A DNA stretch of 63,901 nucleotides from a bacterium (GTDB lineage Bacteria; Myxococcota_A; UBA9042), in contig JAUIAC010000004.1 of assembly GCA_030425545.1 (NCBI GenBank), positions 1 through 63,901 on the forward strand. The letters are read 5' to 3'. The translations under genes were made by a program, and so were the position numbers. Position 1 is the stretch's first letter. Each line of letters starts with the position of its first letter. The notes under the pieces are model-generated. The model was not told the DNA's origin. It did no database searches and saw nothing but the letters and a program-made list of their open reading frames with translations. Below, in pieces: positions 44,566 through 62,739 of the stretch.

Positions 44566-47500
44566 ATGCGGCATCAGCACTACTCCCGCTTGAAGCGGTT
44601 GGGGTTGCTCGCTTGCCTGGTCATGTTCGCGTCGTGCGCGGAAGACCAGCAAGAGCAACCGACCGCGGGCTTGCTGACTGACTTCGCGTCCGGCGTTGAC
44701 GCGGCGTTTGCCGTTGAGACCTTCCACGCCAGTGATCCCGTTTTGGCGATCACCAGCCCCACCGCGAACCAGAAGTTCCTCTACAAGGGCGCAGGCCAGA
44801 AGTACCCGGTCTCGCTGGTCTTCAAGGTCACCAACTTCGCGCTGGGCGCCACCGACGGCAAGGTTCGCTGCTTCCTCGACGGCAACCAGGTGCTCACCAC
44901 CTTCAAAGAGAACGACGCCACCACCAACACGATCGCTGACCTGAAGACGGTGGGCGTGCACTCGATCGCCTGCCTGCTCATCGACAAGAACGGCACCTCC
45001 GTCCCCAACACGCAGCAGCTGGTCTTCGTGCAGCTCAGCCAGACCTGCCAGACCTCGGGCGACTGCAAGGACGGCAACGAGTGCTCCATCGCCACCTGCA
45101 TCGGCGGCGGCTGCGAGTACGAGCCGGTCAAGAACTGCTGCAACAACGCCTACGAGTGCGGCCAGGGCGAGACCTGCACCAACCCCGGCGCCAACAGCAA
45201 GTGCACCGCGTGTCAGCTGGACACCGACTGCGACGACGGCGACAGCTGCACCACCGACAAGTGCGACCTGAGCGGCGTGAAGGGGCAGTGCACCAACGTC
45301 AAGGCCGACGCGGAGTGCTGCAACAAGGCCGGCGACGCCGGCAAGATTCAGTGCGACGACGGCCTCGCCTGCACGGTCGACAGCTGCGACACCACCGCCA
45401 AGAAGTGCAAGCACGTCAAGCCCGACGGCGTGTGCTGCTTCGACTCGGAGTGCGCCACCAAGGACCCCTGCCAGCTCGGCAGCTGCGTCAACTTCGAGTG
45501 CCGCTTCAACCTCAACAAGTTCCGCCCCGACTGCTGCAGCCCCGAGACCAACCCGAAGTGTGACGACCAGTACTCCTGCACCATCGACAAGTGCGAGACG
45601 TCCAAGGACGGCGGCGCGTGGACCCAGTGCACGCACACCAAGGACCCGGCCAAGCCCAACTGCTGCGGCAAGTACAACCAGACCAACGAGTGCGAGGACA
45701 ACAACCCTTGTACGGCCGACTTCTGCGACCCGGTGAAGGAAGAGTGCTTCCACGTCACCCAGCCGGGTTGCTGCGTCAACGACAAGGACTGCGACGACTC
45801 CAGCTTCTGCACCACCGACAAGTGCAAGAAGATCAACCCCGAAGACACCGCCGGCAAGTGCGAGCACGTCAAGCCCGATCCGCTGTGCTGCACGTCCATC
45901 GCCGAGTGCGACGACGACCTCTTCTGCACCTGGGACGTCTGCAACCTCGAGACCAACAAGTGCAGCCACCCGAAGAAGAACGCCACCTGCTGCGACAAGA
46001 ACGACGAGTGCAACGACGGCAAGACCTGCACCGAGGGCGTCTGCGTCAACCACGGCTGCAGCTTCATCAAGGACAAGTTCAAGCCCAACTGCTGCGACAC
46101 CACCGCGGACTGCAGCGACGGCAAGCCCTGCACCATCGACAGCTGCGACACCGACGCCAACCTCTGCAAGTACGTCAGCAACGGCGACCCGACCTGCTGC
46201 AACGGCCCAGAGGACTGCGACGACAAGAACTGCGCGACGCTGAACTTCTGCGACGCCAGCAACAAGTGCGCGTTCAAGAAGGACCCGACCAAGTGTGAGG
46301 TCGCCCTCGACTGCGACGACGGCAACCCCTGCACCGACGACGCCTGCGACACCTCGGGCGCCTGCGGCGAGTGCAAGCACCTGCCCAAGGCCGACTGCTG
46401 CATCCTCGACACGCAGTGCGACGACGGCAAGCTCTGCACCATCGACAAGTGCACCAACGCCAAGTGCGAGCACAGCCCGCAGGCCAACTGCTGCGTCGAC
46501 GACAAGGACGCCATCGAGGCCTGCGACGACAACAACAAGTGCACCATCGACTACTGCCTCAACAACACCTGCCGCCACACCTCGCCCAAGAACGGGTGCT
46601 GCGCCAGCGACAAGGACTGCAACGACGGCTGGGACTGCACCACCGACAGCTGCCAGAACATCTCGGCCGGCACCGGCACCTGCAACTTCAAGCTGCAGGA
46701 CGGCTGCATCTGCACCGACGCGAGCCAGTGCAACGACAACAACGCCTGCACCTCAGACTCCTGCATCGGCGGCCTCTGCACCAACAAGGCGATCGACGGC
46801 TGCTGCCAGGACAAGTTCGACTGCGACGACGGCGCCCCCTGCACCACCGACTGGTGCGTGTTCAACACCTGCACCAACGTCGAGCTCGGCAGCGGCAACG
46901 GACTCTGCTGCACCGTGGAGAACGAGGCGGCCGACTGCGCCTACCTCAACACCGACTGCTCCAAGGGTGCGTGCGAGCTGCAGCCGGACAAGTCGCGCAA
47001 GTGCGTCAGCAAGTCGGTCGAGATCTGCACCGTGCAGGTCAACTTCTGCCAGGACTTCTCCACCGGCACGAGCCTCAAGGCCATGGGCTGGAACCCCGGC
47101 GACGTGAAGGGCAAGGCCTCTACCAACTGGAAGCCCACCAAGACCGGCCCGCTCGGCCCCGACCAGTCGGCTGAGTTCACGTGGACGCCCACCTACACGG
47201 ACTACGACACCTGCCTGCAGTCGCCTGTCATCCAGGCCGCGGGTTCGCAGAAGATCACCATCCAGTACGACCGACTGCTCGACATCAACAAGGGCGGCGC
47301 GACCTCGTTCCGCCTGCTCGGCTCTCTCGACGGCGCCAACGTGGACTGGACCAAGGCCACGCTCATCGACCTGGTCACGCCCAGCAAGGACGACGGCCCG
47401 GCGACCCTGGACCTGACCCTGCCGCCCGAGCTCACGGGCTCCAACGGCCTGCGCCTCGCCTTCTGCGTCAGCGGCAAGACCACCTTCGACGTCACCCGCA

Positions 47501-62739: not shown

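What the first reader, a model, noticed from the sequence alone, without database searches (positions are those of the whole stretch)
44566..62739. One 18.2 kb gene encodes a 6,057-aa lipoprotein mixing bacterial Cys-rich repeats with eukaryote-type lectin and TLDc domains
This is a single uninterrupted frame with a lipobox signal (LVMFASC). It has its own candidate promoter and a strong terminator. tRNA genes bracket it on both sides (2x Gly upstream, Leu downstream).

Reading along the protein I see, in order:
- an Ig-like head;
- about 17 CC...CTxDxC repeats;
- a jelly-roll and a cadherin-like segment;
- a very long DNDCDG (MopE-like) repeat array containing a SUEL lectin;
- six tandem ~220-aa aromatic modules;
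- a C-type lectin with a nested TLDc;
- a jelly-roll with a second nested TLDc;
- a seventh aromatic module;
- more DNDCDG repeats;
- a PPC-like domain and a Tyr/Ser/Gly-rich tail.

The mix of carbohydrate-binding modules, hundreds of cysteines and a lipid anchor suggests a giant cell-surface adhesin or glycan sensor. I do not recognise this combination as a described architecture.
Basis: partly seen in the sequence, partly recalled or inferred. Interest (0 to 1): 0.8.

Follow-up and report, generated by a model that had tools for sequence, protein, structure and literature searches.

The report
Giant multi-lectin surface lipoprotein gene
An 18 kb gene in a marine myxobacterium encodes a 6,057-residue lipid-anchored protein that strings sugar-binding-type modules on long cysteine-rich and calcium-binding-type stalks; it is real and conserved in a few relatives, none of them studied, and two of its domains are spliced inside other domains.

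Summary
One frame runs from ATG 44566 to the stop at 62739 (6,057 aa, 379 Cys, GC3 0.97). It starts with a lipobox that seven homologues share. DNA repeats inside the gene are only 60-85% identical, so it is neither a pseudogene nor an assembly collapse.

Confirmed domains:
- about 17 Dicty_CTDC-type Cys repeats;
- 32 MopE-type repeats;
- one SUEL lectin;
- one C-type lectin domain (CTLD);
- two TLDc domains.

The seven "aromatic modules" are compact five-bladed beta-propellers (pLDDT 94.7). Cutting out the first TLDc in silico restores a full-length CTLD. The same insertion point recurs in four other giants of 5,400-6,500 aa.

Not confirmed: the Ig-like head, the PPC-like C-terminal domain and a consensus promoter. 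The jelly-roll call rests on one weak MAM hit.

At least five full-length homologues exist, one collinear at 51-58% identity. The closest named relative is a Myxococcales MAG with conserved synteny. None has been characterised.

The TLDc domains are closest to small bacterial TLD proteins, not to eukaryotic OXR1-type ones. Propeller-TLDc pairs also occur in choanoflagellates.

Best reading: a lipid-anchored, fibrillar, multivalent glycan-binding adhesin or matrix protein. This is a new variant of a known kind and of moderate interest.

The parts
43788..43972 (+). Two identical tRNA-Gly(gcc) genes upstream. A hairpin at 43972-44008 follows them.
   Evidence: ARAGORN and Rfam. One tRNA-Gly(gcc) sits in the same position in the NP66 orthologous locus.
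44284..44312 (+). Candidate promoter TTGCCT-N17-TACGTT. Inferred only.
   Evidence: The block is conserved with NP66, which has TTGCCT-N17-TACTTT. It fails the sigma-70 consensus scan.
44554..44559 (+). Ribosome-binding site AGGAGG, 6 nt before the ATG.
   Evidence: Sequence. Conserved in NP66 together with the first codons.
44566..62739 (+). Coding sequence of the 6,057-aa lipoprotein (mature form 647.5 kDa, pI 4.5, 379 Cys).
44566..44637 (+). Signal peptide with lipobox (VMFAS-C24).
   Evidence: Sequence. The lipobox Cys is conserved in seven homologues. No other hydrophobic segment is present.
44638..45021 (+). Conserved N-terminal head (aa 25-152). Fold unassigned.
   Evidence: Conserved in all full-length homologues. 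No Pfam or PDB match.
45022..47013 (+). Cys-rich stalk of 16 CC...CTxDxC repeats (Dicty_CTDC type). A 17th unit lies at aa 1305-1338.
   Evidence: Pfam PF00526, 45 bits, 8 stretches. An iterated HMM finds 17 units.
47014..47535 (+). First beta-sandwich ("jelly-roll", possibly MAM-like), aa 817-990.
   Evidence: Conserved in homologues. No Pfam hit. The model is of low confidence here.
47536..47859 (+). Ig/cadherin-like domain, aa 991-1098.
   Evidence: Best-modelled part of the N-terminal tile: tile residues about 170-280, with 10-residue block means of pLDDT mostly 71-87. Foldseek matches Ig and cadherin domains.
47860..48477 (+). Unassigned alpha/beta segment, aa 1099-1304.
   Evidence: Conserved in P0002 and P0052-P0055. 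No Pfam or PDB match. Poorly modelled.
48478..48975 (+). One Cys-rich repeat followed by a small beta domain, aa 1305-1470.
   Evidence: block means of pLDDT mostly 63-84. No Pfam hit.
48931..53796 (+). Main MopE-type (DNDCDG) repeat array, 25 units.
   Evidence: Pfam PF11617, 477 bits. Unit count. DNA copies are only 60-85% identical.
49819..50049 (+). SUEL (rhamnose/galactose-type) lectin domain inside the MopE array.
   Evidence: PF02140, 75.9 bits. PDB matches are rhamnose-binding lectins and F. johnsoniae RemA. Absent at this spot in P0002. Present in P0062.
53815..57780 (+). Six tandem five-bladed beta-propeller modules of about 217 aa each.
   Evidence: Pairwise identity among the seven modules 26-50%. 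AF2 model pLDDT 94.7, pTM 0.91. Best Foldseek match is the five-bladed glutaminyl cyclases, TM 0.70-0.75. A profile search hits Pizza, NHL and BamB propellers.
57886..58155 (+). C-type lectin domain, N-terminal part (up to the EPT motif).
   Evidence: Lectin_C profile positions 3-78 of 107.
58156..58701 (+). TLDc domain 1, inserted in the long-loop region of the CTLD.
   Evidence: PF07534, 96 bits. NF038124.
58702..58806 (+). C-type lectin domain, C-terminal part (WAD...CYVC).
   Evidence: Splicing out aa 4531-4712 gives Lectin_C positions 3-107 of 107 at 59 bits. The same junction is present in P0056, P0057, P0062 and P0088.
58813..59082 (+). Two MopE units.
59176..59574 (+). Second beta-sandwich (MAM-like), N-terminal part.
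59575..60087 (+). TLDc domain 2, inserted in the second beta-sandwich.
   Evidence: PF07534, 81 bits. The flanking halves are conserved around a TLDc in P0056, P0057 and P0062.
60088..60264 (+). Second beta-sandwich, C-terminal part.
   Evidence: The spliced host gives a weak InhA-like_MAM hit, E = 0.0036, below threshold.
60289..60384 (+). One MopE unit (aa 5242-5273) between the second beta-sandwich and the seventh propeller.
   Evidence: Iterated HMM unit list.
60502..61179 (+). Seventh five-bladed propeller module.
61168..61818 (+). Four MopE units.
61939..62736 (+). Family-specific C-terminal domain (CECNG...EPNN...DWY...CCGQTDFNWFT...SNGVY) with a Tyr/Ser/Gly-rich insert.
   Evidence: 44-50% identical in seven relatives and 31% in P0007. 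No Pfam or PDB match. No C-terminal hydrophobic sorting tag.
62755..62795 (+). GC-rich hairpin just after the stop codon; possible terminator without a U-tract.
   Evidence: dG -43.6 kcal/mol, z = -3.2, and none of 200 shuffles folds as well.
63170..63257 (+). tRNA-Leu(taa) downstream.

Best explanation
The gene encodes a 647-kDa acidic lipoprotein of a marine Myxococcota bacterium. It most likely acts as a fibrillar, multivalent binding protein on or around the cell: an adhesin or matrix-binding protein for polysaccharide-rich targets such as prey, particles, hosts or the cell's own matrix.

**Proposed mechanism**
1. *Export and anchoring.* The protein is exported through Sec and acylated on Cys24 (motif shown; processing inferred). 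With Ala at +2 and no other membrane segment, the acyl chains would be the only anchor, probably in the outer membrane (inferred).
2. *Stalk.* From the anchor outward, a conserved head is followed by 16 disulfide-rich Dicty_CTDC-type repeats. After a block of four small globular domains comes a run of 25 Asp-rich MopE-type repeats. Together these would form a long, stiff stalk stabilised by disulfides and probably Ca2+ (domains shown; stiffness and metal binding inferred).
3. *Binding modules.* The distal half carries the candidate binding modules: one SUEL lectin, seven five-bladed beta-propellers, and two composite units. In each composite unit a TLDc domain replaces a loop of a host domain, either a C-type lectin domain or a MAM-like beta-sandwich.
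4. *The CTLD-TLDc composite.* The TLDc sits exactly at the EPx motif of the CTLD, and the WND Asn is lost. The CTLD therefore probably serves as a scaffold that presents the TLDc rather than as a classical Ca2+-dependent sugar binder (junction and motif loss shown; function inferred).

Many weak sites on one long molecule would give avidity.
For: - **Intact, strongly coding frame:**
- **Lipobox** conserved in seven homologues, with no other hydrophobic segment.
- **Domain identities:** MopE, TLD, Lectin_C, SUEL and Dicty_CTDC.
- **Propeller fold** at pLDDT 94.7, with two conserved Cys in the last blade.
- **Extracellular make-up:** 379 Cys and pI 4.5.
- **Nesting is real and under selection.** The spliced CTLD gives a full-length match. 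The junction recurs in P0056, P0057, P0062 and P0088, and the second nesting in P0056, P0057 and P0062.
- **Precedent:** the SUEL domain matches rhamnose-binding lectins and the SUEL domain of the F. johnsoniae gliding adhesin RemA.
- **Layout** (anchor, stalk repeats, distal binding domains) fits the published definition of fibrillar adhesins (PMC8286594).
- **Vertically inherited gene:** a collinear 6,157-aa orthologue at 51-58% identity, and synteny with NP66.
- **Context** is rich in secreted and surface proteins and includes a triple DsbA-like protein.
Against: - No experiment or expression data exist.
- Surface exposure of a lipoprotein this large has no known route, and no secretion or sorting signal other than the lipobox was found.
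- The CTLD lacks the canonical EPN/WND Ca2+-sugar site: it has EPT and WAD.
- The SUEL motifs are only partly kept: YGT for YGR and KAL for KYL.
- The propeller and the TLDc have no known ligand.
- About 900 residues remain unassigned: the head, the first beta-sandwich, the alpha/beta segment and the C-terminal domain.
- Metal binding by MopE repeats is a family label, not a tested property.
Confidence: 0.6

Rival explanations
1. It is a structural extracellular-matrix or cell-coat scaffold. The protein is shed or loosely anchored and cross-links the cell's own exopolysaccharide or forms a protective coat, with no recognition of foreign targets.
For: One partial homologue (P0054) is annotated "extracellular matrix protein" by its source. 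Most of the length is repeat stalk. Neighbouring genes encode many Ig-like surface proteins and a matrixin-type protease.
Against: That annotation is an automatic name. The distal half is packed with lectin-type and propeller modules whose number and kind vary between relatives. That pattern is more typical of ligand-facing adhesins. This rival overlaps the best explanation and differs mainly in the target.
Confidence: 0.17
2. It is a cell-cell (kin) recognition receptor of the TraA type. Here variable lectin-like modules on a Cys-rich stalk would mediate homotypic contacts between sibling cells.
For: It is a Myxococcota protein with a Cys-rich repeat stalk and lectin-type domains. The comparison with M. 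xanthus TraA rests on my own knowledge. Module content differs between relatives: propeller number varies, and SUEL is present or absent.
Against: No PA14 domain and no MYXO-CTERM or other C-terminal tag were found. The anchor is at the opposite end of the protein. No TraB-like partner gene is evident next to it. The protein is several times larger.
Confidence: 0.08
3. It is an enzyme array or a toxin-delivery protein. The propellers would be glutaminyl-cyclase-like catalysts, or the C-terminal domain a toxin as in Rhs/teneurin-type proteins.
For: The best structural matches of the propeller are five-bladed glutaminyl cyclases. There is a faint Glu_cyclase_2 hit. The C-terminal domain is unassigned.
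Against: Identity to the cyclases is only 9-13% and the Pfam hit has no stretch that passes on its own. No Rhs/YD, toxin or peptidase family was detected. The C-terminal domain is conserved rather than polymorphic across relatives, mostly 44-50% identical.
Confidence: 0.04
4. It is an artefact: a pseudogene, or a chimeric or collapsed assembly of repeats.
For: The source is a metagenome-type contig, and the gene is very repetitive at the protein level.
Against: - 6,057 codons without a stop, with GC3 of 0.97.
- Internal DNA repeats are only 60-85% identical.
- A collinear 6,157-aa orthologue from another assembly, plus three more giants with the same order of parts.
- Conserved ribosome-binding site, start codon and flanking synteny.
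Confidence: 0.01

Closest known systems
Uncharacterised giant homologues in public (meta)genomes: P0056 (6,157 aa), P0062 (6,517 aa), P0088 (5,422 aa), P0057 (5,406 aa), P0002 (3,900 aa); partial P0001 (Myxococcales MAG, KC502_06300) and P0054 (MEY3014546.1); locus L002 (Myxococcales bacterium NP66)
   Same: They share the lipobox, head, Cys-rich stalk, the block of four small domains, the MopE array and the C-terminal domain. P0056, P0057, P0062 and P0088 also share the propellers and the CTLD with nested TLDc. P0056, P0057 and P0062 also have the second nested TLDc.
   Different: The number of propellers varies. SUEL is present only in the window protein and P0062. P0002 has no propellers and carries its single TLDc at the very C-terminus. 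None has a described function.
Fibrillar adhesins (Monzon et al. 2021, PMC8286594)
   Same: A long single polypeptide with a cell anchor at one end, tandem stalk repeats, and candidate binding domains distal to the anchor.
   Different: The anchor here is an N-terminal lipid rather than a sortase motif, beta-barrel, T1SS or T9SS signal. MopE was not mentioned in that paper's main text and Lectin_C was not found by a text search. Its supplementary domain lists were not checked. Binding is not shown.
Flavobacterium johnsoniae RemA (PDB 8gl6; PMC8481357)
   Same: A bacterial cell-surface adhesin that carries a SUEL-type lectin domain. The window's SUEL domain matches it at 42 bits.
   Different: RemA is about 1,400 aa, is exported by the T9SS and moves with the gliding machinery. 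The window protein has no T9SS C-terminal domain and is in another phylum.
Eukaryotic TLDc proteins (OXR1, NCOA7, mEAK-7, TBC1D24)
   Same: The same Pfam domain, PF07534.
   Different: Those are intracellular proteins. Several were solved bound to V-ATPase; that functional context is my own knowledge, as one search lists only the molecule names. Similarity is weak, at 22-27 bits. The window's TLDc domains are extracytoplasmic, nested in other domains, and cluster with small bacterial TLD proteins.
Bacterial TLD proteins (NCBIfam NF038124, "PEP-CTERM-anchored TLD domain-containing protein"; for example a Nitrospinota MAG protein, MEK9629555.1)
   Same: They have the closest TLDc sequences, about 50% identical. 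The model scores 173 bits against a cut-off of 100.
   Different: Those are proteins of roughly 200-400 aa, some with a PEP-CTERM tag. Here there is no such tag, and the domain is embedded in a giant protein.
Choanoflagellate [propeller-propeller-TLDc]n proteins: Salpingoeca rosetta PTSG_13098 and PTSG_09826; Microstomoeca roanoka EP00043_P020559
   Same: The same five-bladed propeller family (108-153 bits against the module HMM for the S. rosetta proteins) next to a TLDc of the same broad type, 32-40% identical.
   Different: These are eukaryotic proteins with fn3 domains; the M. roanoka one ends in a transmembrane segment and cytoplasmic tail. The TLDc follows the propellers directly and is not nested. 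There are no MopE repeats.
Animal mannose-receptor-family C-type lectin domains (DEC-205, PLA2R, MRC1)
   Same: These are the best sequence matches of the spliced CTLD, 45.8 bits for a single DEC-205 domain.
   Different: The canonical EPN/WND Ca2+-sugar site is absent (EPT/WAD), and the long-loop region is replaced by a whole TLDc domain.

Membership tests
Bacterial lipoprotein | Signal peptide with a positive n-region and hydrophobic core, ending in a lipobox [LVI..][ASTVI][GAS]-C within about the first 35 residues | tested here: met
   MRHQHYSRLKRLGLLACLVMFAS-C24. The Cys is conserved in P0002, P0054, P0056, P0057, P0062 and P0088.
Bacterial lipoprotein | Actual acylation by Lgt/Lnt and cleavage by LspA | not testable with these tools
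   Needs globomycin sensitivity, palmitate labelling or mass spectrometry. In passing: the homologue P0002 lies just downstream of lspA and lgt.
MopE-related / PF11617 repeat proteins | Tandem DNDCDG-type Cys/Asp motifs that match PF11617 above its cut-off | tested here: met
   477 and 176 bits against a cut-off of 27. 32 units.
MopE-related / PF11617 repeat proteins | Metal (Cu or Ca) binding | not testable with these tools
   Needs ICP-MS or ITC on a recombinant repeat block.
SUEL / rhamnose-binding lectin domain (PF02140) | Match to the domain profile over its full length | tested here: met
   75.9 bits against a cut-off of 31.4, profile positions 1-80 of 80. 55.8 bits to one domain of PDB 5h4s.
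SUEL / rhamnose-binding lectin domain (PF02140) | Conserved YGR, DPC and KYL sugar-site motifs (motif definition from my own knowledge) | tested here: inconclusive
   DPC is kept. YGR is YGT and KYL is KAL (sequence; alignment).
C-type lectin domain (PF00059) | Full-length match to the CTLD profile, including the C-terminal Cys pair | tested here: met
   Met only after excising aa 4531-4712: positions 3-107 of 107 at 59 bits, against positions 3-78 at 45.6 bits unspliced.
C-type lectin domain (PF00059) | Canonical Ca2+-dependent sugar site (EPN or QPD, plus WND) | tested here: not met
   The window protein has EPT and WAD. Relatives have EPS/WSD, QPT/WTD and EPN/WSD. It has the CTLD fold but should not be filed as a classical C-type lectin.
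TLDc domain (PF07534) | Match to the domain profile above its cut-off | tested here: met
   96.4 and 81 bits against a cut-off of 24.5, profile positions 3-169 and 5-167 of 170.
PEP-CTERM-anchored TLD proteins (NF038124) | TLD domain plus a C-terminal PEP-CTERM sorting tag | tested here: not met
   The TLD part matches at 173 bits. The C-terminus has no hydrophobic tag.
Fibrillar adhesin | Cell anchor, tandem stalk domains, and an adhesive domain distal to the anchor (PMC8286594) | tested here: inconclusive
   The layout fits, but no domain here has demonstrated adhesive activity.
T9SS, T1SS (RTX) or MYXO-CTERM surface proteins | A C-terminal secretion or sorting domain, or RTX repeats | tested here: not met
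   No such Pfam or NCBIfam hit. No C-terminal hydrophobic segment.
Plant/bacterial-type glutaminyl cyclase (PF05096) | Profile match above its cut-off | tested here: not met
   24.4 bits summed over the seven modules, with no stretch passing on its own. 9-13% identity in the structural alignments. The shared feature is the fold only.
Pre-peptidase C-terminal (PPC) domain, as claimed for the C-terminal domain | Profile or structural match to PPC | tested here: not met
   No Pfam hit at E <= 1. No PDB hit with the single sequence or with a 9-sequence profile. No structure model was available for this part.

The most novel reading that the evidence does not exclude
In this family the TLDc fold would be an extracellular recognition module, although in eukaryotes it is known only as an intracellular domain. 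It has been grafted into the ligand-binding loop of a C-type lectin domain and into a MAM-like sandwich. It works together with a previously undescribed compact five-bladed propeller. The same propeller-TLDc pairing in choanoflagellate surface proteins would then reflect an ancient cassette exchanged between marine bacteria and the closest unicellular relatives of animals, as has been proposed for teneurins (PMC3278476).
Probability: 0.25. Interest if true: 0.7.

Novelty: new variant of a known kind. Interest (0 to 1): 0.5.

Why it matters
- **A defined family.** The finding sets out a small, conserved family of about 650-kDa lipid-anchored surface proteins in uncultured marine Myxococcota. 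How these organisms touch prey, particles or hosts is unknown.
- **A clean case of domain-in-domain evolution under selection.** A whole TLDc domain replaces the sugar-binding loop of a C-type lectin domain, at the same residue in five proteins.
- **TLDc outside the cell.** The biochemical role of TLDc is still debated even in eukaryotes. An extracytoplasmic bacterial clade offers a simpler system in which to look for a ligand.
- **A candidate new domain family.** The compact five-bladed propeller has no Pfam model that it reaches in the copy used here. It is common in giant bacterial proteins and is shared with choanoflagellates.

If the modules bind nothing, this is simply one more large repetitive hypothetical protein.

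Tried and rejected
- **Pfam on the two halves of the protein missed the SUEL domain.** It appeared only when the segment was scanned alone.
- **Pfam found nothing for four segments** (head, first beta-sandwich, alpha/beta segment, C-terminal domain), and a PDB sequence search of three of them (not the first beta-sandwich) also found nothing useful. A 9-sequence profile of the C-terminal domain also found nothing in the PDB.
- **The second structure job gave a poor model.** The tile aa 817-1473, with a 6-sequence alignment, reached only pLDDT 55. Only the Ig-like part and the last beta domain are usable, and the Foldseek matches beyond "Ig/cadherin-like" are not meaningful.
The single-protein query found two loci but not the source genome.
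- **The word-indexed homologue searches missed the full-length relatives.** The exhaustive HMMER search then found them.
- **Promoter and RNA checks.** The sigma-70 scan found no promoter. Rfam found no element in the roughly 250-nt leader.
- **Literature.** Searches for secreted or bacterial TLDc, for PF11617/MopE-related proteins and for TLDc in choanoflagellates found nothing on proteins of this kind.
- **Readings rejected:**
  - a tachylectin-like propeller lectin: no such structure among the 50 best-ranked matches listed;
  - a genomic island bracketed by tRNAs: synteny and GC3 argue against it;
  - assembly collapse.

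
Full report

The window holds one uninterrupted + strand frame from 44551 (GTG) or 44566 (ATG) to the stop at 62739. 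I take the ATG as the start for three reasons.
- AGGAGG lies 6 nt upstream, at 44554-44559.
- This ribosome-binding site and the first codons are conserved in the nearest relative.
- The 6,057-aa product is an exact entry in the public protein collection, on a contig of 63,901 bases. The window is therefore the whole contig. The 6,062-aa version is not in the collection.

GC by codon position is 0.50/0.47/0.97, the same pattern as the neighbouring genes. The two very long antisense ORFs (2,435 and 2,786 aa) have GC1 of about 0.97, so they are mirror artefacts.

Internal DNA repeats are only 60-85% identical. The seven large protein modules are 26-50% identical to one another. Repeat collapse or a chimeric assembly is therefore very unlikely. 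The mature protein would be 6,034 aa, 647.5 kDa and pI 4.5, with 379 Cys and no hydrophobic segment other than the signal peptide.

Two tRNA-Gly(gcc) genes lie upstream and one tRNA-Leu(taa) downstream.

**2. Anatomy**

*Signal and lipobox.* The N-terminus, MRHQHYSRLKRLGLLACLVMFAS-C24, has a positive n-region, a hydrophobic core and a lipobox. The Cys is conserved in all seven homologues that have an N-terminus.

*N-terminal third.*
- A conserved head (aa 25-152) has no Pfam or PDB match. "Ig-like" is unverified.
- Sixteen CC...CTxDxC repeats follow, with a 17th at aa 1305-1338. They match Dicty_CTDC at 45 bits.
- Residues 817-1473 hold four small domains that every full-length relative shares.
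- My AlphaFold model of this tile, made with only six sequences, was poor (pLDDT 55). Only an Ig/cadherin-like domain (aa 991-1098) and the last beta domain are usable.
- The first "jelly-roll" and an alpha/beta segment (aa 1099-1304) remain unassigned.

*MopE array and SUEL lectin.*
- Twenty-five MopE-type units span aa 1456-3077, and seven more lie downstream, 32 in all.
- A SUEL lectin domain sits inside the array at aa 1752-1828. It scores 75.9 bits in Pfam. Its PDB matches are rhamnose-binding lectins and the SUEL domain of the Flavobacterium gliding adhesin RemA.
- The homologue P0002 lacks it at exactly this spot, so it is an insertion between MopE units.

*The "aromatic modules".*
- Seven units of about 217 aa lie at aa 3084-4405 and 5313-5538.
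- With a 28-sequence alignment, one unit models at pLDDT 94.7 and pTM 0.91, with about 20 strands.
- The best full-length structural matches are the five-bladed plant/bacterial glutaminyl cyclases, with TM 0.70-0.75 in both directions at 9-13% identity. Six- to eight-bladed NHL, PknD, BamB and YncE propellers follow with partial overlap.
- A profile search of PDB sequences likewise finds Pizza, NHL and BamB propellers.
- The module is therefore a compact five-bladed beta-propeller.
- It reaches no Pfam model on its own in the copy used. PQQ_2 exceeds its cut-off only when the tandem copies are summed (51.6 bits against 27.6, with no single stretch passing). One module alone scores 16.6 bits.
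- The same module is common in other giant bacterial proteins, for example 11-12 copies alternating with cadherin-like domains in P0003-P0005. It also occurs in choanoflagellates.

*Nested domains.*
- Unspliced, the Lectin_C match covers profile positions 3-78 of 107. A TLDc follows at once (aa 4531-4712), and then comes "DYVAADHTGKWADV...CYVCKRK".
- Removing aa 4531-4712 in silico gives a full-length Lectin_C match, positions 3-107 of 107, at 59 bits instead of 45.6. The best PDB matches are DEC-205, PLA2R and mannose-receptor CTLDs.
- The junction falls exactly at the EPx motif. The canonical EPN/WND Ca2+-sugar site is degenerate: EPT and WAD.
- The same junction occurs in P0056, P0057, P0062 and P0088.
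- The second TLDc (aa 5004-5174) splits a beta-sandwich whose spliced form gives only a weak InhA-like MAM hit, E = 0.0036. The two flanking halves are conserved around a TLDc in P0056, P0057 and P0062.

*C-terminus.* The last 266 residues form a family-specific domain that is 44-50% identical in seven relatives and 31% in P0007. It has no Pfam or PDB match, even as a profile. "PPC-like" is therefore not supported. No C-terminal sorting tag is present.

**3. Relatives and origin**

- *Word-indexed searches.* These found partial or shorter relatives. P0001 is from a Myxococcales MAG. P0002 (3,900 aa) is collinear with aa 1-3074 at 43% identity and with the C-terminus at 49%, but has no propellers and carries a terminal TLDc. 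P0054 is named "extracellular matrix protein".
- *Exhaustive search.* Using the CTLD-TLDc unit as query, this found the full-length family. P0056 (6,157 aa) is collinear at 58% identity over aa 14-3821 and 51% over aa 3786-6046. P0057 (5,406 aa), P0062 (6,517 aa) and P0088 (5,422 aa) are further members. None carries a name.
- *Species-representative genomes.* The closest locus there is Myxococcales bacterium isolate NP66, at 73% identity over the query region. The upstream Ser/Thr kinase (67% identical) and a tRNA-Gly(gcc) are in the same order there.
- *Conclusion.* The gene is therefore a vertically inherited chromosomal gene of a marine-type Myxococcota lineage, not an island bounded by tRNAs.

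**4. Is it "eukaryote-type"?**

- *TLDc.* The TLDc domains are about 50% identical to small bacterial TLD proteins, for example from a Nitrospinota MAG. They match NCBIfam NF038124 at 173 bits and score only 22-27 bits against solved eukaryotic TLDc structures such as mEAK-7, NCOA7 and OXR2. They belong to a bacterial, extracytoplasmic clade.
- *CTLD.* This domain does look most like animal CTLDs.
- *Choanoflagellates.* Salpingoeca rosetta (on scaffolds of more than 700 kb) and Microstomoeca roanoka encode proteins built of [propeller-propeller-TLDc] units. Their propellers belong to the same family and their TLDc domains are 32-40% identical to the window's. The direction of any transfer was not tested. 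Transfer of large adhesion genes from prokaryotes to choanoflagellates has been proposed for teneurins (PMC3278476).

**5. Regulation**

- *Promoter.* The consensus scan found no sigma-70 promoter. Alignment with NP66 shows a conserved TTGCCT-N17-TACGTT block at 44284-44312, about 250 nt upstream of the ATG, and further conserved leader blocks. No Rfam family matches the leader. This is a candidate promoter only.
- *Terminator.* Directly after the stop codon lies a GC-rich hairpin (-43.6 kcal/mol, z = -3.2) without a U-tract. A weak T-run site follows at 62931-62958.

**6. How it most likely works**

*Shown:*
- an intact giant gene;
- the lipobox;
- the domain identities and their order;
- the nesting and its conservation;
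- the absence of other anchors.

*Inferred:*
- Acylation at Cys24 and sorting to the outer membrane.
- A long stalk made rigid by disulfides and Ca2+, built from the Cys-rich repeats and the MopE array.
- A distal set of binding modules (SUEL, seven propellers and two TLDc composites) that together give avidity for polysaccharide-rich targets.

This layout fits the definition of fibrillar adhesins: an anchor, stalk repeats and distal adhesive domains (PMC8286594). RemA is a precedent for a SUEL lectin in a bacterial surface adhesin. Because the TLDc replaces the sugar-binding loop of the CTLD and the WND Asn is lost, I think the CTLD acts as a scaffold that presents the TLDc (inference).

I put about 0.6 on "extracellular, lipid-anchored binding protein". 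Less rests on glycans as the ligand. The rivals are a purely structural matrix protein, a TraA-like kin receptor, an enzyme or toxin, and an artefact. They are weighed in their own section.

**7. Novelty and score**

Giant modular surface proteins with MopE repeats are common in Myxococcota and Bacteroidota. Unrelated T9SS proteins even combine TLD, Lectin_C and MopE (P0022 and P0027). The general kind is therefore known.

*What is new:*
- a conserved, uncharacterised family with an N-terminal lipid anchor;
- two domain-in-domain grafts of TLDc held at the same residues in several proteins;
- a compact five-bladed propeller domain shared with choanoflagellates.

I rate this a new variant of a known kind, with interest 0.5. 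It is well documented and unusual, but it has no functional evidence and addresses no long-standing question directly. The most novel reading still open is an extracellular propeller-TLDc recognition cassette shared between marine bacteria and choanoflagellates. I give it a probability of about 0.25.

Noticed in passing
window 32982-35237 (+): A 751-aa protein with three DsbA/thioredoxin-like domains lies about 9 kb upstream of a gene that encodes 379 cysteines. It could be a dedicated disulfide-forming factor.
   Followed up: no
window 4359-30401, both strands: A run of large proteins with ASH, Cep192_D4 and HYDIN-type Ig-like domains and PKD-like domains, interleaved with three TPR proteins and a VWA protein. 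It looks like a surface-protein neighbourhood.
   Followed up: partly
window 46753-54060 (-) and 54451-62811 (-): Antisense ORFs of 2,435 and 2,786 aa lie opposite the giant gene. Their GC1 of about 0.97 mirrors the GC3 of the real frame, so they are shadow ORFs, not genes.
   Followed up: yes
window 44273-44565: The leader of about 250 nt has several blocks conserved with the NP66 orthologous locus: TTGCCT-N17-TACGTT, blocks near 44385-44410 and 44520-44545, and the ribosome-binding site. No Rfam family matches.
   Followed up: partly
L001 226-3936 (ENA contig carrying P0002): The 3,900-aa homologue lies directly downstream of lspA (signal peptidase II), lgt (prolipoprotein diacylglyceryl transferase), cdsA and lplA. 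These include the lipoprotein-processing genes. The window does not have this arrangement.
   Followed up: no
P0010, P0011 (Salpingoeca rosetta); P0090 (Microstomoeca roanoka): Choanoflagellate proteins are built of repeated [five-bladed propeller x2 - TLDc] units. The S. rosetta proteins also carry fn3 domains, and the M. roanoka protein ends in a transmembrane segment and cytoplasmic tail. The propeller family is the same as in the bacterial giants.
   Followed up: partly
P0003, P0004, P0005 (metagenomic, 3,400-4,300 aa): These proteins have 11-12 copies of the same propeller alternating with cadherin-like domains of about 100 aa, and a large helical C-terminal region. They form a second giant family that uses this module.
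   Followed up: no
L003 (CAYTLW010000031.1): The record is titled "uncultured Enterobacteriaceae bacterium", yet it carries a 51%-identical homologue of this Myxococcota-type gene. The bin is probably mislabelled.
   Followed up: no
window 30001-40000: GC content rises to 73-76% here, against 64-70% elsewhere. This stretch holds arginine deiminase, the triple-DsbA protein, an FAD-binding protein and a matrixin-type metalloprotease.
   Followed up: no
window 85-1176 (-) and 41413-43455 (+): A PP2C-type phosphatase and a Ser/Thr kinase with a C-terminal membrane/extracellular part. The kinase is syntenic with the giant gene in NP66.
   Followed up: partly
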